From: Trypanosoma brucei
Taxonomy: Eukaryota
Reading direction: 5' to 3'
Assembly (NCBI GenBank): GCA_000002445.1
Contig: CM000207.1
Span: 256,001 to 320,000 of the forward strand
Length of the DNA: 64,000 nucleotides
In this document: piece after piece, positions 23,011-54,852 of the stretch
How positions within the stretch are numbered: position 1 is the first letter of the stretch
Layout: every line of letters starts with the position of its first letter
The notes under the pieces: model-generated
Told to the model about the DNA's origin: nothing
What the model saw: the letters and a program-made list of their open reading frames with translations, nothing else
The model's database searches: none
Translations under genes and position numbers: made by a program

Positions 23011-24452
23011 ATGAACGCTAAAAACTTCAAAAAGGGCAAAGTAACTCTAGTGCCACTGCGCGCACTGCCAACAGTAGCGGCTCTGATTTTATTACCGATA
23101 GCTTACGCTGCTATAGACACAGCGGCCAAAGCGGCACAGGACCACTGCACAGCGGCAACGCAAGCACGAACACTAGCAGGTCAAATGGCAATCACGATAA
23201 AAGAAGCAGCAGTTTCCGCAGCGGAAGCCGTCAAAAAGGCAGCCCAGATGCGTATCATGGCCGCAAATGGCGACCCAGCCGTCTCAGCTGCACTTCGAAC
23301 ACGAGCCGCCGCAGCCAGTCGGTATGCGGCACAGATAACGTCGGAGATCGCAGCAACGGCCGAAAAAATAACAGGAGGCATAGCAGCTGTAGAACACCTA
23401 GCAGCGACATCAGAGGCCATATCTGTTCTCTCGGCGCTGAACCTGGCCGACATAGACCCGAAGAACGTAAGCAGCTATACTGGTAGCGGAGCAAACAAAC
23501 TAAATTTTACACTACAAAACGACCACGGGGCTTGCTACACAGACGCCACAAATCGCAAAGCTGCCGATGAAGGCACAACCAAAGGAGAAGAGGACACGGA
23601 CCAAATCAGTATTGGCATCGTAAAGCTAACAGCAGTTGGGGAACAGGGAGGGGATCCGCTTTCTGTGTGTGCGACAAGCGGAGGATCAACAATAACAGCG
23701 GGTGGAACGTGAGAAACAACCGGAACAAACACTGGGATCAAATGCGGAACGCCACTAAAGAACGAGACCGCGACCGCCAAAATAGCAGATACAAACGGGA
23801 TCTTTAAGTGCGACACAACAGCCCTGGAAAGCAGCAAATTCCCAAGCAAAACAGAACTAGAGAGAACGCTTCAGGCAGTCGCCAGCGGCCTAGACGCTGC
23901 CAGACAATTGCAACGGCGAACACAAATGCACAAGTGGCTCAGCATAGAAGGCTTCACCCACGATGATACGGCACTAGCCAAAATACTGAAAGGAGAGGAA
24001 GCCAAGCCTGACGCCATCGATACTAAGCTACTAGTTGATGCGATAAAGCAACAACTATACGGAAAAGACAACAGCAAATTAAAAGACAAACTAGAAAATG
24101 GCCTCAAAACTTCAAACCATGGAAAGCAGCAATCGGAGATGAAAGCAAAACCCTTGATTCAATAAACGACCCTGACGAGCTCTACAAGGCAGAAACATAT
24201 TATGCTCTCAAAAGATTCGTCGACGAAGAGGAAGAAAAAAAGAAAAACCAAGCGAGTCCCTCATGTCCCACCAAAACAGAAAAAGCGTCAGAACCAGCCA
24301 AAAAAGCAGACGAATGCAAAAAGCATACAACAGAGAAACCCTGCAAGGATGAAAAAGGTTGTGATTTTGATGATAAACAGCCTGATGGTGAAAGATGCTT
24401 TCCAAAAACTGAAACAGAAAAGAAGATGAAAAGTCATTTTCTAGCAATTTGA
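23011..24452 (+). pseudogene. VSG: VSG pseudogene (VSG7) with an in-frame TGA at 23710-23712, a second in-frame stop at 24163-24165, and the CTD in another frame
   Basis: MNAKNFKKGKVTLVPLRALPTVAALILLPIAYAAIDTAAKAAQ... continues in the same frame after GGT*ETTGTNTGIKCGT.... The CTD ...CPTKTEKASEPAKKADECKKHTTEKPCKDEKGCDFDDKQPDGERCFPKTETEKKMKSHFLAI* is in a different frame. 16-mer ttgttatattttaacac at ~24576. Confidence 0.75.
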
Positions 24453-24744
24453 GAGTTTTTGTTCCTCAGGTATTTGCTGCACTTATTTTAGTAATTTTTT
24501 GAGATTTCTTGCTTAATTTTATGAAATTTATAAAACTTGCTGTTTTTACGAGAAATTTATTAAATTTTCTAAATTTTGTTATATTTTAACACTTTTTGAT
24601 GAAAATGTGCAAATTAGTAAATGTTTTTAAAATTTTTGAAAACTATGAATAATAGTGGCCCATTGTTCAAAATAGTATGATAATATGGTATGAAACATGA
24701 TTGTTATTTAAAAAAAATTCAAATATGTTTGTATAATATTTAGG

Positions 24745-29866: not shown

Positions 29867-31386
29867 ATGATTAATTTCATACTGGCGCTAGCGTTGTTGT
29901 TACGCAGCAGTACGTTTCGAGCCGATGGAGCTGCAACAGCCGGCCTCAACGCTGCAGAGTTCGCAACATTGTGTGTCCTTGAAAGACAATCATCAGGAAA
30001 GCTGAGCGAAGTATATCCAAAAATAACGGTTCCCAGCACAAGCATCGACGAAATGAAAGAAATTGCAGCGGCAACGACAAATGCGAAAAATATCACTAGC
30101 GTACCTGCAGCCGACATCGCGGAAAAGGCTTCCGGCGCGAAAACCTCATTCAGACAAGAAACAAACAAAAAAGAGGAGTGCAAAGAACACTGGGGAAAAT
30201 GGCGCGCAGTCAAAAAAGCGGCGAAGAAAACCCAAAGACCAAGGTTCAAGCCACTGTCTGACGCCCGACGGCACAACCAAGCAGCAGCAGGCTTCATCGC
30301 AGCTCTACACGAACTCGAAGACCAGGCAACGACATTCTATGAGCAGCTACTGCAGCAAGCGGCAGGCGGAGCAAACCCCGAAAAATCTCCAGCAGCAACA
30401 AAGCTAACTAACGCCAAGTATGGAGAAAGCAAAACAAAAGTACAAAGCGCGCCGGTAACTGGCCATGGCGGCTGCAGCAACAGAGGCAACGGCTGCAAAA
30501 GCCCAAATACAGGTACGAGTTTAGTACACAACTTCTTTTGTTTGTGTGTAACTGACACAACTAGCTCGGGAAGCAAAACATGTGGTTTCGCGGTTGCTAA
30601 CTGCGGCAGCGGCGCCTGGGAAGCCTGCAACGAGCAGAGCAAGACAGCAGCGTGGGCAACACTAGAAAGCAAATGCAAGGAAATATATAAAGGCAAAACG
30701 ACAGCACAGCACATAAGGGCTGGACTAGCGGCATTCACAGGACGGCTACAAAGGGATGCAAGCGCCGACATCGGCACCAACGCTGCGGAATTCCAAGGAC
30801 AAAGTCAAACGCAAGCCTGCAGAGCACCCGCAACAAAGGTTTGCTTAGACTAAAGCGCCTCATTCAAAGACACGACTCGGGCGGCCGGAATATACTGGTA
30901 CAAACAACTGGATGCAGGCCGCAGACAACCTCGACACGCTCGCAGATGAACAAGCAGACCTCAAAAACAGAATAAGAGGTTTAGATAGTCTTAACATTCA
31001 AGCCAGCCAGCTGTACAAGCTGATCGCGGCTGCACCAACAGTAACGGCAGTAGCGAGCTCAGAAAGCACCAATTCATAAAACGCCAACACCGAGGATAAA
31101 CAAAAAGCATGTGAAAATATTAAAAAAATAACTGAGTGCAAAAATAACAGGGGATGCAAATGGAATAGCACTGAAAAGAGTGAAGGAGACTTCTGCAAAG
31201 CTAAAGAGGTGGAAGGAAAGACAATTCAAGAAACATATGGGCTGCATGAGCCACAAAGGAAAATGTAAAGGGAAATCGGAGAAAGATTGCAAATCTCCGG
31301 ATTGTAAGCGGAAAGGAAAAGAGTAGAAAGACTCGAGTTTTCTTGTAAATAATAAATCGGCTCCGAGTACAGCTGCTGCTTTTTAG
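29867..31386 (+). pseudogene. VSG: VSG pseudogene (VSG9): N-terminal domain intact (328-aa ORF), C-terminal half frameshifted several times
   Basis: MINFILALALLLRSSTFRADGAATAGLNAAEFATLCV... up to 30853, then CTD pieces across frames (...CENIKKITECKNNRGCKWNSTEK...), ending ...DSSFLVNNKSAPSTAAAF* at 31386. 16-mer aatataatatattttaacac at ~31467. Confidence 0.8.
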
Positions 31387-31644
31387 AGTTCGATATTTCA
31401 ATGATTCTTATATTTTAAGGATATTTTACTTATATAATATTTATGAAAATTGTACATCGACAAAATATAATATATTTTAACACATTTTAAAACTTTTTCA
31501 GAATGTGCCATTTTTTTGGAAAACTCAAAATTATGATATATTGATATAATGTTGATCTATGTGTCTAACTTAATAAGATATTATGGTATAAAAAATGAGT
31601 TCTATTATGAAACTTTGTTATCTTGCTTTATTTATTTTATCTTA

Positions 31645-31740
31645 CGGATATTAGTTTCAGTCATGAAAATAACAGTATAGTAATAATAATAAGACAGTGT
31701 TGAGAGTGTGTATATACTGATATTATAATGAAAGTGTTGG
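31645..31740 (+). repeat. 70-bp repeat (about 1 unit)
   Basis: gtcatgaaaataacagtatagtaataataataagacagtgttgagagtgtgtatatactgatattataatgaaagtg. Confidence 0.8.
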
Positions 31741-32805
31741 TGAATACCAAGTGGAAAATTAAAATAGAAGCATTTAAAAGAAATGTAAGGGTGCAGCGTG
31801 AGTAGGAGATTAAGGGAGTGGCAGAGAGCGTGAAATACTATTGAAAAAACACACAAGACAAAGAGAAAGAGAGAAGGAGATAGAATATGCGTATTTTCAC
31901 ACGCGTATATCACTATCATCATGGATAAAATCATGCACATAAACAGATGATTAAATGGACAATGAGAAAGAAATAGGTCTCATTTTACAGATAAAATAAA
32001 GTTTCTACGCCATCTTCAGAAAAAAGGTATTGTACTAAAAAAGGAAAGGAAATACAGAGTGAATAATTTGTGTACTAAACACCACAGCACAGGGAAAACG
32101 ATACGTGAGGCGGATGAGGAGGAGACTTTTTAACGTATTTACTAAAAAAGATATATGAAACACAGAAGATGGATGCGACTGTTGATTTAAATGTTATGCT
32201 TAATCTTAATGCACATCTGTGAAGAGACAGTGGAAGAAATGTAAGTGAGAATTTGAGTAATTATGAAGTAATATTAAAGTTTTCTTCTTTCAGGTATTGT
32301 AATAAGAGATAACATTTGTGGAAAACAATATAATATTTTCTGGCAGAGTATTTTTAAACTAGGTCTTATAATGCATCACTGTAGACATAAAAAAGTAAAA
32401 AAGTCGGATAATGATGATAATAAAGCATTCTTGTGTACAGTTAGTGGGACTTTGTGAGGTAGAAATTTTTGTGACGGTGCGCCCCCAATTCCATATTGGT
32501 TTAAAGTTAATAAACTTAATGTATTCAAACAGCGTATAATTAATATAAGAGTTATCTTTCGCGCGGCTCCAATGGCTCGCGTTGGAGACGCTCAGGCGGA
32601 GACATTGCAATTGATAATTCCAAATTAGTGAGTCGCAAATGGCAGAATCCCAAAGCGGAGCAAGATGGCAACAAACAGGAATAAGACAGGAACAAAAGGT
32701 CAATTACGTCCACTAGTAAACCACGCTACCTTTTTATTTTGAGTCAAACAGAAGCGCCAAAATCAACATGAGACAGACCCGTTAAAGTAAATAAATCTTA
32801 TGCGT

Positions 32806-32838
<33 letters not shown>
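32806..32838. repeat. (AT)n dinucleotide microsatellite, about 16 units
   Basis: acatatatatatatatatatatatatatatattt read directly at 32803-32840. Confidence 0.9.
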
Positions 32839-32841
<3 letters not shown>

Positions 32842-33337
32842 GAATGATGCATGTTATATTTAAAAATTGAGATTCTTTGCCATAATTTCGTGTTTGGTAC
32901 AGACATAACAGAAACAGAAACTAAAAAAGCTGATCAACCTTTTATTCCAGCACCAGAAACCATCCATGTATATGCAAAACCAGTCTAATTAGAGCGAATG
33001 AAAAACAGAAAAAGAACCGGCGCACGCGTCAACCCATGAACAAACGCACACATACTCGATGTTGGACGCAAGATAACGGCGATCAGCACCATCTTGAGAG
33101 ATCAAACAGTTTTTAAACACTTCCCAACACTTGCCATCTAGAAGGACATTCAAGTTCCGAAAATGGGTAAAATATACTCCCGCTTGTGTTGCTACTGGTA
33201 TAATCACCCGTAAAAGCTCATGATTTATAGGAGCCTGTTCAAAAACAGTTTTTTCTGCTGCAAGGCACGCATAAGCCACAACCACGACTATATAAAACAA
33301 GATAGATAAAGAAAAAAGAATAAAGAATCACTCTTCA

Positions 33338-33830
33338 ATGAACTGTTTCAGCGTGATTCTGACAGAAGCAGCAATAATTTATACCGCGATAGCGTTCGCT
33401 AGAGGCCAACCAGACAACACCAACACTATAGGAAACACGGCAACTACATGGTGCGATGACTTGCACTACACTGAGGCGCTAATGAAAGACTTGAGAGACG
33501 AAGCAGAACAACGGCTAACGGTTCTGACGCACGACAACGATATGCTACAAGCCTGGACCATTTCTTTCTACAACGCAAAAGTGGAAACGGAAAAAAGGTG
33601 GTTCGCCTTTTTGCTTTCCTACGGCATGCCAGTTGCAGGAGACAACAGAAAAAACTACAACAACTTCAAATCGCAATCAACGAAGACAGTGTAACACGTA
33701 ACAGCGAAAGCGCATTACTTACGGCAGGCGGAAACGGTAGCGACACATGGGCAACCTGCGTTTGGCACGACAGCACAGACAAGCTGAAACTCAAACACCA
33801 ACCCACAATAATTTAGCTACGAAAGGTCTT
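33338..33830 (+). pseudogene. VSG: VSG N-terminal fragment with its own signal peptide, immediately upstream of VSG10
   Basis: ORF 33338-33694: MNCFSVILTEAAIIYTAIAFARGQPDNTNTIGNTATTWCDDLHYTEALMKDLRDEAEQRL... (signal peptide plus the start of an N-terminal domain), then a frame change to ...TAGGNGSDTWATCVWHDSTDKLKLKHQPTII*. Confidence 0.55.
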
Positions 33831-33833
33831 AAA

Positions 33834-35118
33834 TGACTTTATTTAGCAGAAGAATTTCTACTTTTACCGGCGTAATTGCGGCGCTGATCCTGATCTTTCA
33901 GGGAGCACAAGCTAGCACCGGAAACGAAGTGACCAAATAGAACACACCGTGCGACTCTGCTCATTACCTAATCAAACTCGCTGCGGAAGCTGACTCAAAA
34001 CTGCGGGACTTGTTGGAAAAAGCGGCAGAAGCACAGGATGAACAGCAAACAATTGATCTATACTCGGCGACAGCTGATGTGGGAGCAAACAGACCAGCCC
34101 TGGCCTGGCTGCTAGATAACGCATCACGCCGCGTGGCGACGTTAGCGAAGGAAGCTGTAACATGCAGGAAAGCAGTAGCAGAGCTCACAAGAACACTCCA
34201 CATCGAAGCGGGACGCAAATGGCTACTAGCAGATGCCACACAGATCAGCTCCAAAACGGGAACGGAAACAGCGATGTCAACAACAGCCAGCGGTGACTCG
34301 GTCGCAGCGCATCTCAAGCTCGACAAGCTAACTGACAAAACATGTGCCCAAGCATACTCAAAGCAAGCCGGCGACACCAAGAATGACCCAGTCGTTGTGG
34401 CCCTGGAGCAAATCAAAGTGCACAAGCTCGAAGGCAAAGACGCCGCCGAAACCACAAACAACGTCTGCAAAGTCTCATTTGACGGTGCCGAGTGCAGCAC
34501 CGACCCAAACAACATCAAAGTTTCAACGGCAACAACGGCACTTTTCAAAGCCACAGAACATACTCAAGTAACGGTCAAACCAGGCGGCAGCAAAAACGCG
34601 CGAGACGACAGTCCCCAAGGGCTAAAGAAAGAATTGGAAGAACACGCAAAAAATTTATAATACCGGCTCTACAACTTTCTAAAAAACAAACCATGCGACA
34701 CAGATATGGCCTCCATCCGTAACATGGAACTTGTACAAAACGATGAATGTTTTAGGAAAGCAGTTCTGATAGAGTTACAAGGCCTGAATCCAAATATGAT
34801 GCAGGCAATGATTCACAATCCAAAGCCACAACAAGCGGCATAAAAAGCATGTTCGGCGATAGTGAGACAGAATTCAATGCTAAGATATGGGAGAAGGTGA
34901 AGGCGAACACAGTAAAACAAAAAATAGTCGGAAAAGACATTGAAAGCAAAATCGAACAACTTTCTACCGACACCAACAGAGGACTAGTTCTAGCGTACTA
35001 TGCCTCTCAAAGGAAAAACAAGCCAACATGTGACACAGAGGCCTCCACACAAAAATCACAACAATGCGTAAGCCACAAAACACCAGAACACTGTCAAAAA
35101 GAAGGCTGTTATTTTGAT
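33834..35118 (+). pseudogene. VSG: VSG pseudogene (VSG10), 5' part, interrupted at 35118/35119 by the ingi insertion. The remainder is at 40386-40535.
   Basis: Second signal peptide MTLFSRRISTFTGVIAALILIFQGAQASTGNEVTK at 33834, then an in-frame stop; VSG body ORF 34010-34660; CTD ...CDTEASTQKSQQCVSHKTPEHCQKEGCYFD read up to the TSD tgttattttgat (35107-35118). Confidence 0.75.
35107..35118. repeat. 12-bp target-site duplication (3' side of the minus-strand ingi)
   Basis: tgttattttgat at 35107-35118 is identical to 40374-40385; it is followed by T7 (poly(A) of the minus-strand element). Confidence 0.85.
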
Positions 35119-38100
35119 TTTTTTTGGAATTTTCTTCGTGCCTTTGAGAGAGTTTCCCCCCACTGGCGCGGCCATCAGCTATCACCGTAGAGCCCTGAGA
35201 TGCTATCGGTCTGGCGACTGTGGCAGAGTCTCCCTTTTTTATTCATCCTAATACACTCTCTCTATAACGTTTTGTTGTAGCTCCGCAGTTGAACGGAATA
35301 CAGCAGATGGGGCGAGAAGCCCCCCACCCCGGACTCTCCAAAAGATGTCAATTAGCAATCCTTTTGTTTTGATTTTTGTTATTCGTTTATTATTCTCTCC
35401 CCCTTTTTATGTTTTTGTTGCTTGTTGACTGCATACCCCCTCTGTCTCTGAGGGTGTCTGGACTATTCCTGCATCCGGTGCTTTTCCTGCTAGCTCCACA
35501 CTCGGCAATAAGGGGGGAAGTTGCAGAAGGGAGAGTGGGTTGTATGACTGTTACCTTAGGTGAGGACTTCACCTGCGGCCGGCTCCGTTCAACCGCAATG
35601 AGAAACTGCGCCAGCCTTTTGGAGAAGCATATATCCTGCACACACTCACCTTCCACCGCAAACCTGACACGTAACTCCTTCAAACCGGGACAGCTCATCG
35701 AGTGCAGCGACGTTTCTTCACAGTCGCCGCGTTGGCTGGTAACAGCGCGCTCTACCTTCATACCGTGCATCTTCTTTTGATGTAGGGTGAGGCCAGTTTT
35801 GCTAGCACACTGCCTTCCGCATGTCGGGCACACCAACATGGATGCATTTGTATGCGGGGAATCAGTGGCACAAAATTTTTTGCTTTTGCTGCATTTAAGC
35901 TCGACACCCTCACCTTTGTGGAAAGCCTTACAGTGTCGGATGAGGGAGTCCCTGCAACTGAGCACTTTTTGGCACACACCACACTGCACCTCGCCTTTCC
36001 CCTGGGGACGTTAACGTTTCCCTCACGGGCACGCTTACGAGGGAATTGCACCACCACCACGGTACCGTCCTCCGTCACTATGCTCTTATGTTTGAATTTC
36101 TTGTCTAGTGACAGGGAAGAGCGTGTACCGAAACTCGCCTCACACAGGTCACATTGAAACGGCAGCTTCCGTGTATCCTGAGGGGCTGGCGCTGCTGGGG
36201 CGCTACCATCTCCTTGCACTGAGTCCTCGTTCTCTCGCTCCCTTTTCACGCGGCAACTACCGCTGCCTATGCCATGTATTGTTCTAAGGTGGTGTAATAG
36301 TCGGCCTGGCACTGCGAATTTGGAGGCACAGAGGGTACAATGAAGAACCTGCGGTCTCATCGGGACTCGTGTGTTCGATGGTAGAGGAACGATCACCACC
36401 ACTGGAGGGGGCTCCGGGGGGATATCCACTGCAGGTGTTGCATCGCCGTATTTGATCCTCCGGAGGGCATCAGCTCGCACAAAGCCATGTTTGTTTACCA
36501 TGCGCGTTACAGCACTCGAGCGGCATTGGTATATGGCATCACATTCCGTACATTTGGTCGGTTCGGAGGTTCTCTGAAGAGTGCGTGTCGCAACAGTTGG
36601 GACCGTTTGTATTGTTTGCCCTATCTCTGCATGTTGCGGGTTGCACCATCGGCACTGTGGGAGCGCACTCGGGTTGATCTTTCACAACATCCATCCATAG
36701 TGCCTTGAAGACCCAACCCGAAAGCGTGCCAGTGCCGTTTCTTCTTCCATCGTTAATTATTCCTTATGTTTTGTTGTAAAGTGGTTGCCCGTGATACCAA
36801 ACCTATGAGTGTTCTCATGGACTTCTTCCGACCTAAGCACTCGCTTCGCATAAGCAATGATGTCGGGGATCCATGTGTCTCGCAACTGTGGTAAATCAGC
36901 GGCCTTTTTGGCCATTTCATCACAAACCTCATTCCGTTTCACGCCACAATGGCCAAACACAAATTGCAGTCGGATACGTATCTTCCTTCTCTGAACTTGA
37001 AGCAGAAGCCTCCATAGTCGTCTCAGAATTGGGTCCGTTACGGCTAGGGGGCCTGTCTGCAGTGCTGTTAACATTGACAGCGAGTCAGAGAAGATGGACA
37101 ACCTGCTCTGTGTGCTTCTGTATGCCGGAAGCCATTTCAGCAGCCGTTGCAGTCCTATCTCTAATGCTACGCATTCCGCTCTGTAACTGCATGAGAGTTC
37201 CTCTGCTCCGGTCTTGGGTGCACAAATCAGCGTGTTGTTTCTATAGAGCAGGGCAGCTGCTCCGGACTTCTCACCGAGGGACACGGATCCATCAGTCCAC
37301 AATTCGTAGTGCTCTCGCCGCGGTGGCTCCTTCCCCCTCCGTGCAAAATGCCGTGCAATCCACTTTTCGGAAGCCTCCCTTTTGACATCATCAGGGTCAT
37401 CAGCGCATACGGGCTTTATCTGCGTGTGAAATAGCGGTCGGCAGCTGTGGCGGAGCGTCGATGTCTCTAGTGGGTGCTCGCGTGGCTCAATGTGGAGGTG
37501 GGGATAGGACCACATGATGCGGGATTGTAGGGCTCTGACCGTATGTTTACTGTGGTATACTTCCTCAGCACTGCGGCGCAAACATCCGCCTCGTGACTCA
37601 CACATCAGCATGAATTTCATGCTGCGCACAAGAGTGGCCGTCTTGAGTAGCAGGAGGTTTGCTTCCAGCACAGAGTTCTCTTTGCGCGTCCCATGCGGTA
37701 TGCCGGCTATGATGCGACTGGCTTTGTGTTGTGCTGATGCAAGGAGGTCGCGACTTCGTTCCGAAGCGTCCCAGTACCATACCTCAATACCATACATGGT
37801 GTGTGCCTGTACGAGTGCTAGATAAAAAGCTCTCAGTACTTGTTGTCTTGGCCCCCATGTAGAAGCTGAGATGGCTACTATCTGCAGTAGTCTGAAGTCC
37901 ATCTTGCGTCTCGTTTCGGTCGCATGTGTTGCCATCCCCTGCAGACACTGGAATGTTACTCCTAGAAGCTTCGGTGTCCTGTCAGCTCCTATTCTTTCGC
38001 CGTCCAGTTGTAATGTAAGGGGGTGGCGCTCTGTACACCCGAAGAGTGTGCACTTTGTTTTCGCTACGTTGACAGACATGAAGTACTCTTTTGACCACTG

Positions 38101-40373
38101 TAACACCACGTTTAGGCCGCATTACAGCGTGTGGTTGATGACATCCCTCTCTGTGTGCCTCGCAAGTAGCGTTAGGTCGTCTGCAAAGAATCCGTGCTGC
38201 AGTAACGGCACTTCTGCAAGGCGTTGGCTCAACGAGTTCATGACAATAATGAACATGATTGGGCCAAGGACAGTTCCTTGTGGCACTCCTCGCTCAAATG
38301 TTCTGCTTCTGGAAAGCTTCTCCTTGAATCTCACTCTGCCAGTTCGGTTACTCAGAAATGATACGCACCACTTCACAATGTGGGGTGATACCTTCATTCT
38401 GTGCATTTCCCTCGCAATTTTGTCGTGGTCTACTGTATAAAATGTCTTCTCGTAGTCAACGAATACAGCACCCGTACGATATTGGTGCGTGGGACGGCAG
38501 AGGGCAGCACGGACGTGCAGGAGTTGTTCGAGCGTTGAGCATCCGGGGCGAAAGCCTGATTGCTGCGGCGTCAGCTGGGACTCAACAGTGTCTCTAAGCC
38601 TCGCGGCAATTATGCGCTCCATGACTTTGCAGAGACAGCTCGTGAGCGTCACAGCTCTGTAAGAATCGAGGTCCTCCGCCTTTTTTCCGGCCTTCAGGAT
38701 GGGGATGATAACACCAGTCTTCCATGCAGGCGGCACGACTCCCGTTCGTAGGCTCTTATTGAATAGCTTCAGCAAAACATTCAGCGCTGTTCTACCGAGA
38801 TGTTGCAGTGCCTCGTTGTATAAGCAATCAGGTCCGGCTGCGGATCCACTCGGTAGCAGTTTGATCGATCTCCTTAGTTCAGCCATCGTGATGGGACTGA
38901 ACTCACTCGCTATCGTCTTTACTGGTGCTGGTGGGTGTGAGTCGGGGTGCCTTCTTGCGCGGGACGATTACAGCTTACTGAACTTCTCAGCTTGACGGCA
39001 GTCCGTGATGGTCGCGTTATCGACAAGTACAGCCGGTGTGGTTAGTGGTCGTGGCGCATATACTTTCTTGACAATGTGCCAACTGCAGCGGTCTGACACC
39101 GCAAGTCTGGAGCATAGCGTGCTCCATCTCTTCTTTGTGGTACGGTCCAGGATCTGCTTACGCGTGGCTACCAACTTTTCCCTTCGGTGGGAGGGTCCGC
39201 ATCCAGCGATCTCTTCATCGAGTTTCGCGAGCTCAGGTGTCCAATGTGGTGGCGTTGCTCTGCAGCCACGGGGGACGGAGACCTTCGTCGCAACGCGGAT
39301 TTCGGAGCTCAATTTCTGTTCCAGGGTGTTGACATTCTTCTCTCTACCAATTTTCCTACAGAGGTCGTCAACCTTGAGACGGAAATTCCTCCAGTCAGCT
39401 TTCAGCCATACGTACATGGGCTTTCGAGGCCGCGGGCAACTCAGTGCATCTGTGCCGTCTCCAACGATAACGTCAAAAAATATGTGATGGTGATCGCTAT
39501 CGGGAGAATACAGCGATGTCCACGTGTACACTGTGCAATTCCTTGACAGTGTCACATCAGGGGTGGACTCCCCGTGGTGGCGCGCGTACCTGGTGCACTC
39601 ACCAGTGTTGCAGACCAGAAACTGGTTGTCAATGCACCACTGTGTGAGGGTTTCACCCTTGGTATTTGGTGGGCTCGCGCGATCCCATGCCAACGCGTGT
39701 GCGTTAGCGTCTGCACCGATGAGCTGGGCACCGTCAGTCATCAGAAGCGTATCTAGGTCAGTTGCCGTGAAGGTGTGTTTTGGTGGGATGTATGCCGACG
39801 TGACAGTCAGCGCCGTTTCACTTGCAAGGTGAATTGTTGCATGCACTTGTTCAATGCGACTAACAACGGTCATACCGCTCTCGACTGGTAGGTCCTCCCT
39901 CACTAGTATTGATACACCACCTCCTTTGCAGTTACGAGCTATTCCGTGATGTTGGTAGCCAGCAACGCTAAAGCAAACCGCCTCTCCAGGCGTCATCCTT
40001 GTCTCGCTCAACGGACAAAAGGCGATCCGCTCATCAACAAGGGTTTTGTGGAGTGCTAATCTCTTTCCTTGAGATAGCCCGGCGCAGTTCCACTGTATCC
40101 CGCGCAACGACGGGCCGGGATTCTCTTCCACATCACCGGACAGCAACATCTTAGTGCGGATGATACTGCTGATGACACACTGGCACGTGCCCAGGGACCG
40201 ACAAATGAAGAACGGTGTCCCAGCAAGACGCTGCTGATCCCTGTGCTGTATGATGCCGTAGCCGGAGCACAGCAGTGTTCCCCATGAAAGGAACGCTTCT
40301 GACTCTTGGCTTACCCCGATGATACGGGGTACTGGACCCTGGCACCACGTTGAGGTGGCCGGCATCGCCAGGG
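35119..40373 (-). mobile_element. ingi: ingi non-LTR (LINE-like) retrotransposon, full-length-sized (5255 bp) but degenerate, with its ORF broken into at least five pieces
   Basis: Minus-strand ORF remnants: 38968-40413 (RIME/ingi 5' region ...EAFLSWGTLLCSGYGIIQHRDQQRLAGTPFFICRSLGTCQCV..., 2A-like DVEENPGP, APE-type endonuclease WNCAGL...); 38122-38886 (RT: FRPGCST...FVDYEKTFYTVDHD...FFADDLTL); 36757-38109 (RT thumb and RNase H: LWTDGSVSLGEKSGAAALL); 35758-36501 and 35390-35989 (C2H2 zinc fingers CTLCASKFAVPGRLLHHLRTIHG, CDLCEASF...KFKHK, CGVCQKVL...HCKAFH). Poly-T run at 35119-35125. Flanked by a perfect 12-bp TSD. Confidence 0.9.
40112..40135 (-). other. 2A-like 'ribosome-skipping' peptide motif (SGDVEENPGP) near the ingi N-terminus
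   Basis: The reverse complement of cgggccgggattctcttccacatcaccgga encodes S-G-D-V-E-E-N-P-G-P within ORF 38968-40413(-). Confidence 0.8.
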
Positions 40374-40385
40374 TGTTATTTTGAT
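40374..40385. repeat. 12-bp target-site duplication (5' side of the minus-strand ingi)
   Basis: tgttattttgat, identical to 35107-35118. Confidence 0.85.
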
Positions 40386-40535
40386 GAAAACAAAACGCCA
40401 AAATGTTTTCCAAAAGAGAGCAAAGAAGACAAGAAAAATGGGCATAATGGGAAAACGTAAACTAAAAACACCACAGGAAACACTTCTTTTGTCATTCATA
40501 TGACCCCTCTTTTGCTTGCGCTTTTGATTCTATAA
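40386..40535 (+). pseudogene. VSG: VSG10 3' part (CTD end and GPI signal) resuming after the ingi and TSD
   Basis: Continues in frame from CYFD|ENKTPKCFPKESKEDKKNGHNGKT* with the GPI tail NTTGNTSFVIHMTPLLLALLIL* in the +1 frame. 16-mer-like tttgtgatattttaaagttg at ~40593. Confidence 0.75.
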
Positions 40536-40754
40536 TTTAAATTCTAAATTATTTTTTCCAATTTTCTCAAATTTTATATTTTGAGAGAATTGCTATATTT
40601 GTGATATTTTAAAGTTGTTGATGAAAATGTGCAAATTCGTTTAATTTTTTTAAAAATGCGACATGTGTGCATGATAGCTATCTATCGGTGTAAAGTACTA
40701 TGGTGACAGGTTATGGAAAATTAGTGCTTTTCTACTTTGTTTATATAGTTTATT

Positions 40755-40845
40755 TTATGGATATTAGTCAGGATTATAATAGTAAGGATACGGATAGAAA
40801 AGTGTTGTGAGTGCGTATGTACAAATAATATAGTAATATAGTTGG
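40755..40845 (+). repeat. 70-bp repeat (about 1 unit)
   Basis: ggatattagtcaggattataatagtaaggatacggatagaaaagtgttgtgagtgcgtatgtacaaataatatagtaatatag. Confidence 0.8.
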
Positions 40846-42346
40846 TGAAGCCTTAGTAAACGACCAAAAAGTGACTAAACTAATAACAATGAGAATATTT
40901 GAGAGTACTGGACAGTGATTAATGAGTAGAAAAAAAATATTATAAAGGAAAAACAGAAAGACAAAGAGGTGTAAAAATAGAGATGGCATAAGCGTATTTT
41001 TAAACGAAAACATGACGATGTGTATTATTATGGTATAACTGAAATACGAAACAGTGGAGCAGCTAATGAAAGACGAATAATTCGTTAAATATGTGTTTTT
41101 AAGTTAATCCAGTCATCTGAGAGAGACAATCGAGAAGCATGCAATTGCACAAAAACCTTGCAAAACAAAAACAACACCAAATTTGCAAAATGTGGAAGGA
41201 AACATATGAATGCGGCTAAACACCAAAATAAAAGCGCTTTTGTATAAAAAAAATGCAACAGCAGTGAGATTTAATGGTGACCAGGTAAAGGAAAATTGAA
41301 AAAGTTATTAGACAGAATAAAGCTTTTCATTGTTTCCTAGACTGACAGAATGTGAAGATGCGAAAATTCAGCTCAAATTGAAAATTTAGTGTGTTATAAA
41401 AGACATAGCTTAAAGCATGAAAATTGCTTTTATGTTAAAAGATAAAAACCGCTAGTAAATACTCACTTCAAATAAACACTTCGTCCCCTTAAACATTTTT
41501 GTACAGTTAAGCCTAGAAGACAGCAAAAAGGACGACAATGAAATTGGGCTTACACAAGCAGAAAGATTGCACGTGAACAACAATCGCCGTATTGAAACAG
41601 TTTTACGTACTACCACAAAAACAATTCAGTAACAAAACATCACGGAAACAATCTGGACACCAGCGAACCAGCAATATACGAGGCAAAGTTAAAACCCAAA
41701 CTTACGATGGTGTCTGGGACAATTCACGAACTCGCTAAGAACCAAAAGCAAACAACTCTAAAACCGAAGAGGAGAGTCGTTTTTACACATAAATAGGTAA
41801 TATCTGCAGCGGCAATTAGTAGTTGAGCTTTGCACAGAGACATAATGCGAACATACTGTTGAGTAGAAATAACCATGGGTTCAACCAAAGCATCAGAGAA
41901 CCTGTATGCGCTATTTTCAAGCGGAAGGTATCGTCCAATTTAAATTTAGCAGCAAACAGAAGCATCGGGTGACTACAGCGGGCAGACTCATAGCTATTAC
42001 AAGTCTGTAAATGTTATAACCCACTTTGAGCCCTCTTTTGTGTGACATAATACTATAAGAGAGCAAAGGTTCAATTCAACCTCAATACAACTGTGTAAGC
42101 AGACATCAACAGTAGGTTCACAGACTCTGAACAAAGCACCACCGTGAACGTAGATGGCAACGATCCTCGCCATATATATTCTCTTCTTTGCACAAATAAC
42201 CTCTCTCAGTTTTCAATACCACCGATGCTACCATACCAAAAAATACTATCGAAATACATTTGCTAACGCTAATACAACATGAAAAGCAACCCTACTTACT
42301 ATTCCAGATCCAACTGAGCCAGCTAAGGGAAGCTAGAAGTGAGAAA

Positions 42347-43927
42347 ATGCGGTATTCAGCACTGCACAGTTGCCTCTGGGCCATGTTTCTCTTACTTTTC
42401 CATGAACTAAATGTGGACGCGACTTCAAAAGGCGCGATAAATGGCGACAAGTGAAAACCGCTGTGCACACTAACCAAGGACGCAGTCAAAGTGTATAACC
42501 GTGCACTCAAGCTCCAAAAATTAATTAGGGACTACACCAAAGCGGCCAGCAAGCTGACTGTAGCAGCAATCGCTGCAGCGGAGAAGCTGCAAAGCACAGA
42601 CGCCACCGCGGCAACAATAGGACTTGTGGCTGAGATAAGAGAGCAGCTGAAAGCAAACAACCAAAAGTCGGAAGGTTCTACAAAGTGGCCGTAGAAACAC
42701 CGGCCTTCATGGGCTACACGCACGGACTGATAGCCGAATTCTTAGAAATAATGGGCCACAACAGAGGAGCATCGAACTACGGGTGCCTAGCAAAACTAAG
42801 CTCCCCGAATTCGCCGGCCACCGAAGCAGCAGCAGCACTATTATCGACCTGCAAAATCAAGCCGGATGACATAACAGCAGGAAGCGAACCGACGGCAGTG
42901 CTGACCAAAGCAGGTTTTGTCGGTATGGACGAAGGCACAGGCCTCGTCGCCGGTGTTCTCACGACCGGCGGCAACGAACACTGTGACCTAACGTCAGCCA
43001 CAGCAAGTGCCTTAAACTCAGACACAGGAATACAAGAAGATATTCCGTTCGCAGACGGCTATTTCCTAAAAGGGCCAACCAACACTGCTCAAACAAGTCA
43101 CCCCATAAATTCGCTGTCAAAACAAAGGGAGGAACTCCCAAACAAGGGCCAAAATCAACAATATGTGAGGCTGTGTGACAAGTACGTCCAACTGGAGAAA
43201 TGTGAAGCGGCTTTCAAAGAGGGGTTTTCGAGACCCGAAGCAGAGACACTCAAACAGTCAGGAGCAGTATTAACAGCCCTGAAAAACATAATCGACAACA
43301 AAAGCGGCGAATATGACCCGAGTAAAGACGGCGGCCAGATCAAGACCATGGCTGAGAAATTGTTCAAACCCGGCGTGGACAACTACCCAGAAAAGCTATA
43401 CAAGGAAGTACAAGCAAAGACGTTGACAAAAATACTGATGGCGGGCAACACAGCAACGAGCCTGGCGGAACTGGAAACCCCAATAGACCTGCAAATCGCA
43501 CAAATATACTATATACAACGCAAGATCGATGGTTTTACCGCAAAAACTAAAGGAAGCTGAGAAACAGCTTTCCAAGGCTAAACTGGGTGATTATGGAGCA
43601 GCCGCAGCAGAAGATGCCTGCAATAAACTAGATGGCGAACAAAAATGCAGTTACGAAACGGCAAGTGATGGGACTAAAAAGTGTACATATAATGCAAGCA
43701 AAGCAAAAGCAAACAACGTCCCTGTAGCACGAACTCAAACAGAATCGGCTGAAAAAACAACAAAGAAATGTAAAGGTAATAAAATGGATGACTGCAAGTA
43801 TCCGGATTGTAATTAGGAAGGTAAAACTTGCAAAGACTCTAGTTTTCTCTTCAATACGAAAACGACTCTGATGGCTGCAACTTTTCTGTTTTTTTTTAAA
43901 TTTTTTCACCCTCTATTTCCTTGCTGA
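42347..43927 (+). pseudogene. VSG: VSG pseudogene (VSG11) spread over at least four frames
   Basis: Signal peptide MRYSALHSCLWAMFLLLFHELNVDATSKG (42347); ORFs 42491-42694 and 42685-43560 (291 aa N-terminal-domain-like); 43529-43816 (CTD: CNKLDGEQKCSYETASDGTKKCTYNASKAKANNVPV...KKCKGNKMDDCKYPDCN*); then EGKTCKDSSFLFNTKTTLMAATFLFFF... GPI tail. 16-mer aatttaatatattttaacaac at ~43926. Confidence 0.8.
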
Positions 43928-44620: not shown

Positions 44621-45227
44621 AAATGGCAAAATATGGAGTTCGGCAGCTAAAGCCAGTCGACGTAGCAGCCTGTACCGGTCGTTGCGCGGCACAGCAACAT
44701 AGCCAAAGTAAGCGGATGAGGCGAGCAGTTAACTGCAGTGTCATCAGGCCACTGCGTGCACATCACCATGCCCCAACAGATCCGGCGGCGACAGTCAAAG
44801 ATCTTAATGCATGGCCCCAAAATCACTAAGTGCATAAATCTACCGCAAAAGCAAAGCAACAAGCCAACAGTAGAGGGACAGAAAAAATGCAAACCACAAA
44901 ACGCAACAGCTGAAGAATACACAAGCGAGGACTGCGAATATGATGCCGCCAAAAACACAGGAATGTAAACCTAAACAAGGAACAGAAACCCCAGCAACAG
45001 GAACAGGAGAGACAAGTTCTGGGGTAGATTGCAGCAAAAACCAAACCCAGAAAACCTGTGAAGCGAAAAACAAGGATGTAAAACCGGGTCAGAAAGCAGT
45101 ATGTGGATGGATAGATTATGTTGACGGCACAGGCAAGCTTCCCAAACCTGAGTGTCGCTCTTTCAGTTTCCTCATCAATAAGAAATTTTCTCTGACGGCA
45201 GATGCTTTCGTGGCTTTGTTAGAATGA
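44620..45227 (+). pseudogene. VSG: Orphan VSG C-terminal-domain fragment with a conserved leader (paralogue of 51300-51904)
   Basis: Frames give ...EGQKKCKPQNATAEEYTSEDCEYDAAKNTGM* and ...ECKPKQGTETPATGTGETSSGVDCSKNQTQKTCEAKNKDVKPGQKAVCGWIDYVDGTGKLPKPECRSFSFLINKKFSLTADAFVALLE*. The 5' ~250 bp is homologous to 51300-51560. 16-mer tgtgacatattttaacacc at ~45318. Confidence 0.7.
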
Positions 45228-51290: not shown

Positions 51291-51904
51291 TTAATATTTA
51301 GAAGTGGCAGAATATGGCGCTCGGCAGCTAAAACCAGCCGACGTAGCAGCTTGGACCGGTCGTGGCGCGGCACAGCACCCTAGCCAAAGCAGCCAGAGCT
51401 CTCAAACAATCAGCTGAAGCAGCAGCAGGGCAATGCAGGTGCATCACCATGCCCCAACAGATTAGGCGGCAGATGTAAAACATCTTAATGCTGGGTTCCA
51501 TAAGCACCACTTCCGAAAATACACTGCAAAAACAAAGCAGTAAGCAAACAGTAGAGCAAAAAAATAAATGCAAACTGAAAAACACAACTGCAGGAGCATG
51601 ACCAGAAGCTGACTGCGACAATGATAACACCACAAAGGAATGCAAACCTAAACCAGGATCAGAAAACGCAGCAGCAGGAACAGGAGATGGAGCAAAAAGT
51701 AAGTCTCAACAGTATAAGGACACAGATAGTTGCAAGAATGCACCAGAAGAGAAAAATCTAGCTAAAAATGCAGTCTGTGGTCGGATTTATTTTATTGATG
51801 GTCAAGGAAACGTTGAAGCTTAATGCTGTGATAAAAGTTTTTTTGCAAAAACGAAATTTTCTCTGATCGCCGCTGCTTATATGAGTTTGTTAGCAATTAA
51901 ATGA
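51290..51904 (+). pseudogene. VSG: Orphan VSG C-terminal-domain fragment with a conserved leader (paralogue of 44620-45227)
   Basis: aatatttagaagtggcagaatatggcgctcggcagctaaaaccagccgacgtagcagc... is homologous to 44595-44680. Translation ...ECKPKPGSENAAAGTGDGAKSKSQQYKDTDSCKNAPEEKNLAKNAVCGRIYFIDGQGNVEA*CCDKSFFAKTKFSLIAAAYMSLLAIK*. 16-mer aaatttgatatattttaacac at ~52003. Confidence 0.7.
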
Positions 51905-53223: not shown

Positions 53224-54852
53224 GTGCGAATGATGTTCGGCAAAGCAACTGGAGAAAAGATTGAGCTGGCGAGCACATCGGCGGCGATAACCCTCCTTAT
53301 TTGCATGTTGGGTACCCCTAGCGAGGTGGATGCAACTGCAGGGCACGCTATCAAGAGACAGCATTGGGTTGCTATTTTTGAACTAGGGCAGGATGCAGAA
53401 AAGATACCAGCTTTAGCACTGACAAACCTGAGGAGCGCTGCAAGCGTGGCCGAAGATGCATTCACGAAGCTACTAAGAGCGCTAATTTACGCGCAAGCTA
53501 ACCTCACTAGAAGAACCCTACCAAAGGAAAAGGCAGCATGGTTTTTTTTGGGAGAAGAGGTCGCCGCTGGTCTAGCTTACTTCAAGGGCGGCAAAGCAGC
53601 AGCTGACATAACAGCCGCCCGTAACGCCGGTAGGCTGCAGGGCGCCATCACAGAATTCATTGAGCTCCACGCAGAGGGCTCAGACGGAACTAACGGCTGT
53701 CTCAGCGCAGATGACGACGGGGGCAACCCGATCAGCGGCAAGGCAACTTTCTCAGGCGCAACAACGGCATGCAAAGCAAACTGGGATGACGTAAAAGCAG
53801 CATCAACAAGGCCAACAGTTATCGCCGCCAACGGACTCGTAGGAAAACTGCAAAACGGAGTCGACCACGACAATCTAGTAAACGGAGCGAAACAGTGCGA
53901 TATAAACTCAGCGAAAACGACCTTCAAGCTGTCTGACGGGGCAAGCGACGGAACTAACGTGGGCACGCACATACCGAAAATGGCGGCAGGCATAATAACA
54001 GTGGGCACCACGGGACTCGAGATACCAAGCATGGCAAGCGTGGGACCGACGACTGGGCACCACGACTTCTTGAAATCAATAGTACAAGCAGCAAAGTGCG
54101 ACCAACACAGACTGCAAAAAGCAGCAGTGGACACCCTGGCAGAGGCGCAGAAGGAACCGAGGTTCAAAAAGGCAACAAAAATACACCTCCAAAACAAGAA
54201 ATCCGACGACCCCGATGATGAAGACTCCAGAGAGCGTGCGATAAAGACGGCATACGGCGACGACGACGGCATGCGGAAGGTGCTTTACGCCCACCCAGAT
54301 GGCCAACCAATCCCCAAAGCAGCACTAGGCACCGACGCCGACACAACATTAGGCCAAATCACGGACGTTGGTGAACTGATGCGTTTGTACTTTTACTATT
54401 CGGACTTGAACAAGCAGAAACTACTAGAAGCTGAGAAAAAACTTCAAGAAGTAGAAACCAAGACGGCTACAAAATCAGCAGAAGACAAAGAGAAAGAATG
54501 CAATACCAAAGGGAAAGACAAAAAGGAAGAGTGTGAAAAACTAGCGAAAGAGGGGTGCGTTTTTAACACAGAAGCCAAAAAGTGTGAGTTGAAAAAAGAA
54601 GTGAAACCTGAGCTAGAAAAAGCAAACCAGGAAACAGGAAAGACAACAACAGATAAGTGTGGCATAGAAAAACCTCCTGAGGACTGCGAAAAAGTGCAAG
54701 GTACGAAACCCAAAGGAAAAAATGTCGTTTGTGGTTGGATTGATTATATTGATGGAAAGGGCAAAGTTGAGCCAGCTTGCCGCTCTTCTAGTTTTCTAGT
54801 CGACAAGAAACTTGCTCTTATTTCTGCTGCATTTGTGAGCTTGCTTTTTTGA
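53224..54852 (+). CDS. VSG: Apparently intact VSG (VSG13), 542 aa
   Basis: Uninterrupted ORF; N-terminus MRMMFGKATGEKIELASTSAAITLLICMLGTPSEVDA; CTD ...ECNTKGKDKKEECEKLAKEGCVFNTEAKKCELKKE...KCGIEKPPEDCEKVQGTKPKGKNVVCGWIDYIDGKGKVEPACRSSSFLVDKKLALISAAFVSLLF*. 16-mer aaatttgatatattttaacac at ~54937. Confidence 0.8.
   Translation: MRMMFGKATGEKIELASTSAAITLLICMLGTPSEVDATAGHAIKRQHWVAIFELGQDAEKIPALALTNLRSAASVAEDAFTKLLRALIYAQANLTRRTLPKEKAAWFFLGEEVAAGLAYFKGGKAAADITAARNAGRLQGAITEFIELHAEGSDGTNGCLSADDDGGNPISGKATFSGATTACKANWDDVKAASTRPTVIAANGLVGKLQNGVDHDNLVNGAKQCDINSAKTTFKLSDGASDGTNVGTHIPKMAAGIITVGTTGLEIPSMASVGPTTGHHDFLKSIVQAAKCDQHRLQKAAVDTLAEAQKEPRFKKATKIHLQNKKSDDPDDEDSRERAIKTAYGDDDGMRKVLYAHPDGQPIPKAALGTDADTTLGQITDVGELMRLYFYYSDLNKQKLLEAEKKLQEVETKTATKSAEDKEKECNTKGKDKKEECEKLAKEGCVFNTEAKKCELKKEVKPELEKANQETGKTTTDKCGIEKPPEDCEKVQGTKPKGKNVVCGWIDYIDGKGKVEPACRSSSFLVDKKLALISAAFVSLLF

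What the first reader, a model, noticed from the sequence alone, without database searches (positions are those of the whole stretch)
33834..40535. ingi retrotransposon inserted inside a VSG coding sequence, with an intact 12-bp target-site duplication
The 12-mer tgttattttgat occurs at 35107-35118 and again at 40374-40385, exactly bracketing a 5255-bp minus-strand ingi. That size matches a full-length ingi, and the 3' T-run of the element abuts the first copy. The VSG10 reading frame runs ...HCQKEGCYFD into the TSD and resumes after the second TSD (ENKTPKCFPKE...NTTGNTSFVIHMTPLLLALLIL*), so the element landed in the C-terminal-domain coding region. The conserved TSD argues for a relatively recent event compared with the heavy decay of the element's ORF. 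Alternatively the element was already degenerate when it was mobilised in trans, or the whole module was copied by gene conversion after insertion. Either way it shows directly how retroelements fragment the silent archive and could seed mosaic breakpoints.
Basis: seen in the sequence. Interest (0 to 1): 0.6.

Follow-up and report, generated by a model that had tools for sequence, protein, structure and literature searches.

The report
Ingi retrotransposon splitting a VSG pseudogene
A full-length but dead copy of ingi, the common Trypanosoma brucei jumping gene, sits inside the tail-coding end of a silent, already broken surface-antigen (VSG) gene and is flanked by the 12-base duplication this family always makes; it is a clean textbook case, not a new kind of thing.

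Summary
TGTTATTTTGAT occurs exactly twice in the window, at 35107-35118 and 40374-40385. It brackets a 5255-bp minus-strand element that has every Tbingi hallmark tested except a good target-motif match:
- a CCCTGGCG... 5' end;
- one long ORF with endonuclease, RT, RNase H and zinc-finger regions;
- an A8 tail;
- a 12-bp target-site duplication.

Deleting the element plus one 12-mer restores a contiguous A-type VSG. It aligns without a gap across the junction to an intact T. brucei VSG (…KEGCDFDENKTPKC…) and to an in-window paralogue.

- The VSG ATG is at 33833, not 33834.
- The VSG is a pseudogene in its own right, with three premature stops and a 1-nt deletion.
- The ingi is not heavily decayed. 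It carries four point-mutation stops and one 2-nt insertion, and repairing them gives a 1657-aa ORF.
- All five lesions are absent from the ingi copies compared, sampled from two other genomes.
- At about 2.2% private divergence one expects about 4.4 stops and a 59% chance of an intact duplication. The perfect duplication therefore carries no extra timing information.
- The insertion site matches the published ingi target motif poorly (5/10).

No orthologous empty-site allele could be reached. This is an ordinary, already known kind of event.

The parts
33833..35106 (+). VSG pseudogene, 5' part (A-type N-terminal domain and start of the C-terminal domain). Lesions: TAG at 33938-33940, TAA at 34658-34660, 1-nt deletion at about 34783.
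   Evidence: Three-frame translation. Pfam PF00913 Trypan_glycop over residues 34-390 of the stitched protein. 89% identity to EATRO1125 VSG-1513 over the N-terminal 63% of the query, and 61% to the intact VSG P0001.
35107..35118 (+). Target-site duplication, left copy (TGTTATTTTGAT). It encodes CYFD of the VSG and lies next to the element's 3' A-tail.
35119..40373 (-). Full-length Tbingi non-LTR retrotransposon, 5255 bp, antisense to the VSG.
   Evidence: Length matches the published 5.25 kb (PMC2323293).
35119..35126 (-). A8 tail of the element (T8 on the + strand).
35390..40365 (-). Degenerate single ingi ORF. The ATG is at element nt 9. Premature stops are at 38968-38970, 38122-38124, 36757-36759 and 36682-36684; a 2-nt insertion is at about 36003-36004. 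Repairing these five lesions gives 1657 aa plus a stop.
40295..40373 (-). 5' terminal 79 nt (position of the '79-bp signature' / Pr77 hallmark), starting CCCTGGCGATGCC...
   Evidence: Homology to the T. equiperdum ingi copy begins at element base 1 = L001:6118, and the upstream sequences are unrelated. Family hallmark described in PMC2323293 and PMC4035085. No Rfam family matched.
39481..40098 (-). AP-endonuclease domain.
   Evidence: Pfam Exo_endo_phos_2, E=1.3e-12.
38146..38679 (-). Reverse transcriptase domain.
   Evidence: Pfam RVT_1, E=3.3e-36.
36898..37311 (-). RNase H domain.
   Evidence: Pfam RNase_H, E=1.5e-10.
35765..35833 (-). C2H2 zinc finger. A second, weaker one lies at 36274-36342.
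   Evidence: Pfam zf-C2H2_4, E=3.2e-5 and 1.2e-3, both below the gathering score.
40374..40385 (+). Target-site duplication, right copy (TGTTATTTTGAT), next to the element's 5' end.
40386..40535 (+). VSG pseudogene, 3' part (rest of the C-terminal domain and the hydrophobic GPI-signal tail). Premature TAA at 40458-40460; natural stop at 40533-40535.
   Evidence: Gapless alignment to P0001 across the junction.

Best explanation
A Tbingi non-LTR retrotransposon, probably intact or nearly so at the time, inserted by target-primed reverse transcription into the C-terminal-domain coding region of a silent array VSG of Trypanosoma brucei.

**Inferred steps.**
1. The ingi endonuclease nicked the window's + strand after ...TGTTATTTTGAT (between empty-site positions 40385 and 40386). 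This left a T-rich 3'-OH that primed reverse transcription on the element's poly(A) tail.
2. A second nick on the other strand, 12 bp away, produced the 12-bp duplication of TGTTATTTTGAT, the codons for Cys-Tyr-Phe-Asp.
3. The element landed antisense to the VSG, after residue 429 of 478. It now separates the N-terminal domain and most of the C-terminal domain from the last 49 codons and the 3' flank by 5.3 kb.
4. Since then the element has decayed neutrally. It has four single-base nonsense mutations, one 2-nt insertion and about 2% private substitutions.

The VSG carries three nonsense mutations and a 1-nt deletion of its own. It is dead independently of the insertion, and which lesion came first is unknown.

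**Shown:** the anatomy, the duplication, family membership, restoration of a contiguous VSG on removal, and the private nature of the lesions.
**Inferred:** the nick positions, that the insertion happened at this locus, and the neutral-decay timing.
For: - The exact 12-mer sits at both ends, has only two copies in the window and does not extend. Chance is about 1e-7.
- The element is 5255 bp, starts CCCTGGCG... and ends in A8.
- Endonuclease, RT, RNase H and zinc-finger regions lie in that order on one strand.
- Homologues are named reverse transcriptase or Tbingi in Trypanosoma.
- Nucleotide identity to ingi copies in T. equiperdum and T. b. gambiense is 93-96% in the BLAST segments, with the 5' boundary coinciding.
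- The 12-bp duplication and 5.25-kb length are published family constants (PMC3820030; PMC2323293).
- The repaired ORF is 1657 aa.
- All four stops and the 2-nt insertion are absent from the compared copies (TAC, CAA, GAA and CGA at the stop positions).
- The private branch is about 2.2%. That predicts 4.4 stops, against 4 observed, and P(duplication intact) = 0.59.
- The empty-site reconstruction is 78% identical to intact VSG P0001 over 198 aa, with one single-residue gap about 40 residues past the junction and none at it.
- The in-window paralogue at 24360-24371 reads uninterrupted through ...GCDFDDKQ....
Against: - No orthologous empty or filled allele from another strain could be retrieved, so presence/absence polymorphism and the exact pre-insertion sequence are inferred from paralogues only.
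- The site matches the published ingi4 target signature at only 5 of 10 positions. That is the top 10.6% of window positions, so it is not distinguishable from background. The reference copy in L001 matches 8 of 10.
- The last 166 bp of the element had no comparator in the fetched loci, so the 3' terminus rests on the A-run, the duplication and the total length.
- Only three independent ingi lineages were compared, so 'private' lesions could still be shared with unsampled copies.
Confidence: 0.9

Rival explanations
1. The retrotransposition happened in an ancestral copy of this VSG elsewhere. The whole VSG+ingi module, duplication included, was later brought to this position by segmental duplication or gene conversion between VSG arrays.
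For: - VSG arrays are known to evolve by duplication and conversion (established knowledge).
- The window is such an array of A- and B-type VSGs.
- The VSG's N-terminal part (89% to VSG-1513) and its C-terminal half (78% to P0001) have different closest relatives.
Against: - There is no second copy of the element, the VSG or the junctions in the 64-kb window.
- Nothing in the flanks marks a duplication boundary.
- This scenario still needs the same primary insertion event, so it adds a step without explaining more.
Confidence: 0.12
2. The element was already defective when it inserted, and was mobilised in trans by the proteins of an active ingi, as RIME elements are.
For: - Trans-mobilisation of non-coding partners by ingi is the accepted model for RIME (PMC2323293).
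- Only a few ingi copies per genome are described as potentially functional (same paper).
- The private substitutions of this copy are 12 synonymous to 20 non-synonymous, which cannot by itself separate the pre- and post-insertion history.
Against: - All five disabling lesions are absent from the T. equiperdum and T. b. gambiense copies at the same positions.
- The number of stops (4) equals the neutral expectation (4.4) for the copy's private divergence. No pre-existing damage is needed.
Confidence: 0.1
3. The 12-mer pair is a coincidence or a microhomology left by recombination, and the element reached this place by a DNA-level rearrangement rather than retrotransposition.
For: The 12-mer is AT-rich, and the insertion site is a poor match to the published endonuclease motif.
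Against: - Both copies lie exactly at the independently defined element termini: homology start CCCTGG at the 5' end, and the end of the A-run at the 3' end.
- The length is exactly the family's 12 bp.
- The chance probability is about 1e-7 (PMC3820030).
- Removing one copy plus the element restores the reading frame.
Confidence: 0.01

Closest known systems
Tbingi (ingi4 subclade of the ingi/L1Tc clade), the autonomous non-LTR retrotransposon of Trypanosoma brucei
   Same: - 5.25-kb length and a 5' end at the position of the 79-bp signature.
- A single 1657-aa ORF (after repair) with AP endonuclease, RT, RNase H and C2H2 finger.
- An A-rich 3' end and a 12-bp target-site duplication.
- About 94% nucleotide identity to other copies (PMC2323293, PMC3820030).
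   Different: This copy is non-functional (4 stops and a 2-nt insertion). It sits at a site that matches the published upstream target signature at only 5 of 10 positions.
ingi/RIME insertions in RHS (retrotransposon hot spot) pseudogenes of T. brucei
   Same: The same element family interrupts a subtelomeric multigene-family coding sequence and leaves a pseudogene (established knowledge: Bringaud et al. 2002 and 2004, cited in PMC2323293).
   Different: RHS insertions recur at one relative position that fits the endonuclease motif. Here the host gene is a VSG, the site fits the motif poorly, and no recurrence was seen.
L1Tc of Trypanosoma cruzi
   Same: - The same clade and the same domain order.
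- The same conserved 5' hallmark and a 12-bp duplication (PMC3820030, PMC4035085).
- An N-terminal 2A-like DxExNPGP motif, present here as DVEENPGP. That L1Tc carries one is from my own knowledge.
   Different: A different species, a different target signature (ingi6 type) and a 4.9-kb length.
Human LINE-1 target-primed reverse transcription
   Same: - Staggered nicks by an APE-type endonuclease.
- A T-rich primer strand at the first nick (here ...TTTTGAT^G).
- A poly(A)-adjacent target-site duplication.
   Different: The L1 duplication varies in length and 5' truncation is common. Ingi-clade elements make a fixed 12-bp duplication and are usually full length.

Membership tests
Tbingi non-LTR retrotransposon | Length about 5.25 kb | tested here: met
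   35119-40373 is 5255 bp. Published value 5.25 kb (PMC2323293).
Tbingi non-LTR retrotransposon | Conserved 5' terminal 77-79 nt signature (Pr77 hallmark) at the very start of the element | tested here: met
   Element nt 1-320 align at 93.4% to the start of the ingi copy in T. equiperdum (L001:6118-6436). Homology begins at base 1 (CCCTGG) and the upstream sequences are unrelated. The published consensus was not available as text, and no Rfam model matched.
Tbingi non-LTR retrotransposon | [quoted passage not shown] | tested here: met
   Pfam hits lie in that order on the minus strand; the zinc-finger hits are below the gathering score. After the five lesions are reverted the ORF is 1657 aa. 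As found, the ORF is broken, so the copy is not functional.
Tbingi non-LTR retrotransposon | A-rich 3' end | tested here: met
   The element ends ...TTCCAAAAAAAA (A8), directly followed by the duplication.
Tbingi non-LTR retrotransposon | 12-bp target-site duplication | tested here: met
   An exact 12-mer at both ends with no extension. 12 bp is stated for Tbingi/TbRIME in PMC3820030.
Tbingi non-LTR retrotransposon | Conserved motif upstream of the insertion (ingi4 signature AxxxxxxxTxxxGTxGGxTxxx^xTxTxxTxxxxx) | tested here: inconclusive
   The site matches 5 of 10 specified positions, which 10.6% of all window positions reach. The L001 reference copy scores 8 of 10, which validates the register. 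Published specificity is only 'relative', so a poor match does not exclude membership.
Tbingi non-LTR retrotransposon | RIME halves at the two ends (first and last ~250 bp shared with RIME) | not tested
   No RIME sequence was available. The fetched loci had no comparator for the last 166 bp.
T. brucei VSG (A-type) | A-type N-terminal domain | tested here: met
   Pfam PF00913, residues 34-390 of the stitched translation. Relatives are named variant surface glycoprotein.
T. brucei VSG (A-type) | Cysteine-containing C-terminal domain followed by a hydrophobic GPI-signal tail | tested here: met
   ...CDTEASTQKSQQCVSHKTPEHCQKEGCYFDENKTPKC...SFVIHMTPLLLALLIL* is 78% identical to the C-terminal half of intact VSG P0001. 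The Pfam C-terminal model PF10659 did not hit either protein.
T. brucei VSG (A-type) | Intact open reading frame (functional gene) | tested here: not met
   Three in-frame stops, one 1-nt deletion and the ingi insertion. It is a pseudogene.

The most novel reading that the evidence does not exclude
VSG C-terminal coding regions might be a preferred landing zone for ingi/RIME, in the way RHS genes are. In this window the published ingi target signature is matched 10/10, 10/10 and 9/10 by three homologous VSG C-terminal stretches (…VCGWIDYIDGKG…). One ingi does sit inside a VSG C-terminal domain, though at a different, poorly matching site. If retrotransposition systematically hit this region, it would repeatedly uncouple VSG N-terminal domains from their 3' homology block and so shape which archive genes can be copied whole and which can only contribute to mosaics.
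Probability: 0.06. Interest if true: 0.5.

Novelty: already known. Interest (0 to 1): 0.15.

Why it matters
This is a clean, fully resolved example of how a retroelement breaks a gene of the silent VSG archive. It has exact termini, an exact 12-bp duplication and a restorable reading frame.

The host gene was, or became, a pseudogene anyway. Ingi elements in subtelomeric arrays are long known, so the case adds no new principle.

Its practical value is as a presence/absence marker for comparing T. brucei strains. It also shows that a perfect duplication next to a broken ORF needs no special explanation.

The side observation is the only part that could lead somewhere new: one common VSG C-terminal sequence type carries a perfect match to the ingi endonuclease motif.

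Tried and rejected
- **Orthologous empty or filled allele.** The closest proteins P0001 and P0002 have no encoding contig on record. Three window ORFs (an ingi ORF piece and two neighbouring intact VSGs) are not on record either, so the source assembly and other strains could not be reached. The remaining collections hold bacterial, viral or metagenome DNA and were not scanned.
- **Third protein search.** A search with the C-terminal half alone returned nothing, although P0001 clearly matches it. I treat this as a limit of the word index, not as evidence.
- **Rfam.** Rfam on the element found no ribozyme or other family, only a chance-level snoRNA hit at E=0.82.
- **Literature.** Searches for a description of ingi inside a VSG coding sequence found nothing specific. 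The Bringaud 2004, Marcello & Barry 2007 and Kimmel 1987 papers are not held. A sequence-string search for CCCTGGCG returned only irrelevant papers.
- **Longer repeat.** Rejected. The flanks differ immediately outside the 12-mer.
- **'Heavy decay'.** Rejected. There are five lesions in 4.97 kb.
- **Duplication as evidence of recency.** Rejected as uninformative. P(intact) is about 0.6 at the measured divergence.
- **Order of VSG and ingi decay.** Lesion density is about 2.8 per kb in the VSG against 1.0 per kb in the ingi. Three stops against 1.4 expected gives P = 0.16, which is not decisive.
Full report
**1. The observation**

- The 12-mer TGTTATTTTGAT is present at 35107-35118 and 40374-40385 on the + strand. 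These are the only two exact copies in the window; the three other matches listed carry one mismatch each.
- The bases just outside the two copies differ on both sides: GAAGGC|…|TTTTTTTT versus CCAGGG|…|GAAAAC. The repeat is therefore exactly 12 bp and is not the edge of a longer repeat.
- At this window's base composition, identity of 12 bases at two fixed positions has a probability of about 1e-7.
- The DNA between the copies is 5255 bp (35119-40373).
- Two details need correction:
  - The VSG start codon is at 33833-33835, one base before the given start.
  - The VSG frame is not open. It has a TAG at 33938, a TAA at 34658, a 1-nt deletion at about 34783 and a TAA at 40458, in addition to the insertion.

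**2. What the inserted element is**

Read on the minus strand, the element starts CCCTGGCGATGCC… and ends …TTCCAAAAAAAA.

- **Domains.** Its ORF pieces carry, in order, an AP-type endonuclease (Exo_endo_phos_2, E=1.3e-12), a reverse transcriptase (RVT_1, E=3.3e-36), RNase H (E=1.5e-10) and C2H2 zinc fingers. The zinc-finger hits are weak and below the gathering score.
- **Homologues.** The nearest database proteins are reverse transcriptases of T. brucei equiperdum and T. b. gambiense, and proteins named 'Tbingi protein' in other trypanosomes.
- **Nucleotide identity.** The element's BLAST segments are 93-96% identical (mostly about 94%) to ingi copies fetched from T. equiperdum (L001) and T. 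b. gambiense chromosome 9 (L002).
- **5' end.** In L001 the homology starts at element base 1, and the sequence upstream of it is unrelated. This fixes the 5' terminus independently of the duplication.
- **Published constants.** The literature gives 5.25 kb, a single large multifunctional ORF, a conserved 5' 79-bp signature and an A-rich 3' end for ingi (PMC2323293; PMC4035085). It gives a fixed 12-bp target-site duplication for Tbingi/TbRIME (PMC3820030).

All of these features are met. The element is a full-length Tbingi.

**3. State of the element**

- The ORF starts at the ATG at element nt 9 and stays in one frame. It is broken only by four premature stops (element nt 1404, 2250, 3615, 3690) and a frameshift caused by a 2-nt insertion near nt 4370.
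- At those positions the compared copies have TAC, CAA, GAA and CGA, and lack the two extra bases. Each stop is therefore a single substitution.
- All five lesions are private to this copy among the three lineages sampled.
- Reverting them gives an ORF of exactly 1657 aa.
- The three lineages differ pairwise by 5.8-7.3% over the region where all three could be aligned. The private branch of the window copy is about 2.2%: 32 private substitutions in 1501 columns.
- In the repaired ORF, 4.0% of all possible substitutions create a stop. A divergence of 2.2% therefore predicts 4.4 stops, and 4 are observed.
- The same divergence predicts a 59% chance that all 24 duplication bases are unchanged.

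The broken ORF and the perfect duplication are what simple neutral decay after insertion of an intact element would give. The duplication carries no extra information about recency, and there is no need to assume a dead element was mobilised in trans. That alternative is not excluded, because only three lineages were compared.

**4. The host gene and the empty site**

- The stitched translation is an A-type VSG (Pfam PF00913). It has a signal-peptide-like start, a cysteine-containing C-terminal domain and a hydrophobic tail.
- Its closest relatives are EATRO1125 VSG-1513 (89% identity over the N-terminal 63% of the query; the entry ends at 306 aa) and an intact 476-aa T. brucei VSG, P0001 (61% overall).
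- Removing the element and one 12-mer gives …HCQKEGCYFDENKTPKCFPKESKEDKKNG…. This aligns with P0001 …PCQKEGCDFDENKTPKCFPKESKDDKKNG… at 78% identity over 198 residues, with no gap at the junction.
- A paralogous VSG in the same window carries TGTGATTTTGAT once (24360-24371) inside an uninterrupted …KGCDFDDKQPDGERCFPK….

The 12-mer is therefore host coding sequence (Cys-Tyr-Phe-Asp) that occurs once in uninterrupted relatives. The insertion lies after residue 429 of 478.

These are paralogous empty sites. An orthologous allele from another strain could not be retrieved.

**5. Mechanism**

The anatomy fits target-primed reverse transcription.

- In element orientation the order is: upstream flank – ATCAAAATAACA – ingi – A8 – ATCAAAATAACA – downstream flank.
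- The first nick is inferred on the window's + strand after …TTTTGAT. This leaves a T-rich 3' end able to pair with the poly(A) tail.
- The second nick is inferred 12 bp away on the other strand. Fill-in then gives the duplication.
- These nick positions are inferred from the junctions and from the published model (PMC3820030). They are not shown directly.
- The published Tbingi target signature AxxxxxxxTxxxGTxGGxTxxx^xTxTxxTxxxxx (PMC3820030) is matched at only 5 of 10 positions. About one window position in ten scores that well.
- The L001 copy scores 8 of 10, which confirms the register used.

This insertion therefore used a poor-consensus site. That is compatible with the 'relative' specificity described for the family.

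**6. Rivals**

- **Later DNA-level copying of the VSG+ingi module.** This cannot be excluded, but there is no second copy in the window.
- **Trans-mobilisation of an already dead copy.** This is disfavoured by the private lesions.
- **Coincidence or recombination.** This is effectively excluded by the match between the duplication and both independently defined termini.
- **Order of events.** Whether the VSG was already a pseudogene when hit cannot be decided. Its lesion density is higher than the element's, but not significantly so: 3 stops against 1.4 expected, P=0.16.

**7. Comparison and novelty**

- This is a member of a well-described family. It behaves as described for that family and sits in a genomic setting (subtelomeric VSG arrays) where ingi elements are long known.
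- I found no paper in the held library that describes this particular insertion, or ingi inside a VSG coding sequence as such. The key older papers are not held.
- I rate the kind of event as already known, and the finding as correct but ordinary.
- The claim that it 'could seed mosaic breakpoints' is untested. What can be said is that the insertion puts 5.3 kb between most of the coding sequence and its 3' end.

**8. Seen in passing**

- A second, very diverged ingi-related element lies at about 55856-59681 on the + strand.
- Three homologous VSG C-terminal stretches match the ingi target signature 10/10, 10/10 and 9/10, and all three are unoccupied.
- The ingi ORF carries a 2A-like DVEENPGP near its N-terminus.

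Noticed in passing
window 55856-59681 (+): A second, highly diverged ingi-related element (DIRE-like). tblastn with the repaired ingi protein gives 25-36% identity over residues 35-1301. It coincides with the GC-rich block at 55-59 kb, and its ORF pieces have no Pfam hit at E<=0.01. Boundaries, duplication and subclade were not determined.
   Followed up: partly
window 54722-54755, 51768-51801, 45094-45127 (all +): The published Tbingi target signature (AxxxxxxxTxxxGTxGGxTxxx^xTxTxxTxxxxx) is matched 10/10, 10/10 and 9/10 by three homologous VSG C-terminal-domain coding stretches (…VCGWIDYIDGKG…SSSFLV.KK…). None carries an element here, whereas the ingi of the finding sits at a 5/10 site. Whether this VSG tail type is a real insertion hot spot genome-wide is untested.
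   Followed up: partly
window 40111-40134 (-): The ingi ORF encodes a 2A-like 'ribosome-skipping' motif, DVEENPGP, at residues 78-85, upstream of the endonuclease domain. From my own knowledge, such motifs are known in L1Tc/ingi-clade elements; this was not checked in the library.
   Followed up: no
window 24270-24470 (+): A paralogous VSG C-terminal domain (…KGCDFDDKQPDGERCFPK…) contains the 12-mer with one mismatch (24360-24371). It serves as an in-window uninterrupted counterpart of the insertion site. This VSG tail then runs into a stop and looks degenerate.
   Followed up: yes
protein P0002 (EATRO1125 VSG-1513), compared with window ~34740-34760: The closest relative of the interrupted VSG ends at 306 aa with …VQTTKA, where this window and P0001 read …VQNDE(C/G)F. 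That is what a 1-nt deletion in an A-run would give, so the relative may be an independently damaged pseudogene or a truncated entry (inference only).
   Followed up: no
L001 6118-17263 (T. equiperdum CM010677): The ingi copies in this locus are arranged as direct and inverted partial copies that are 0.2-1.5% different from each other. The first copy lacks the equivalent of element nt 321-571. This is either a real rearranged ingi cluster or an assembly artefact.
   Followed up: no
window 1-64000: The whole window is a VSG array, mostly + strand, with A-type and B-type N-terminal domains. Most units are broken into short ORFs, and only a few are open over ~490-540 aa. No 70-bp-repeat array was detected by TRF in the stretch scanned, 30800-42700, which includes the sequence upstream of the interrupted VSG.
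   Followed up: partly
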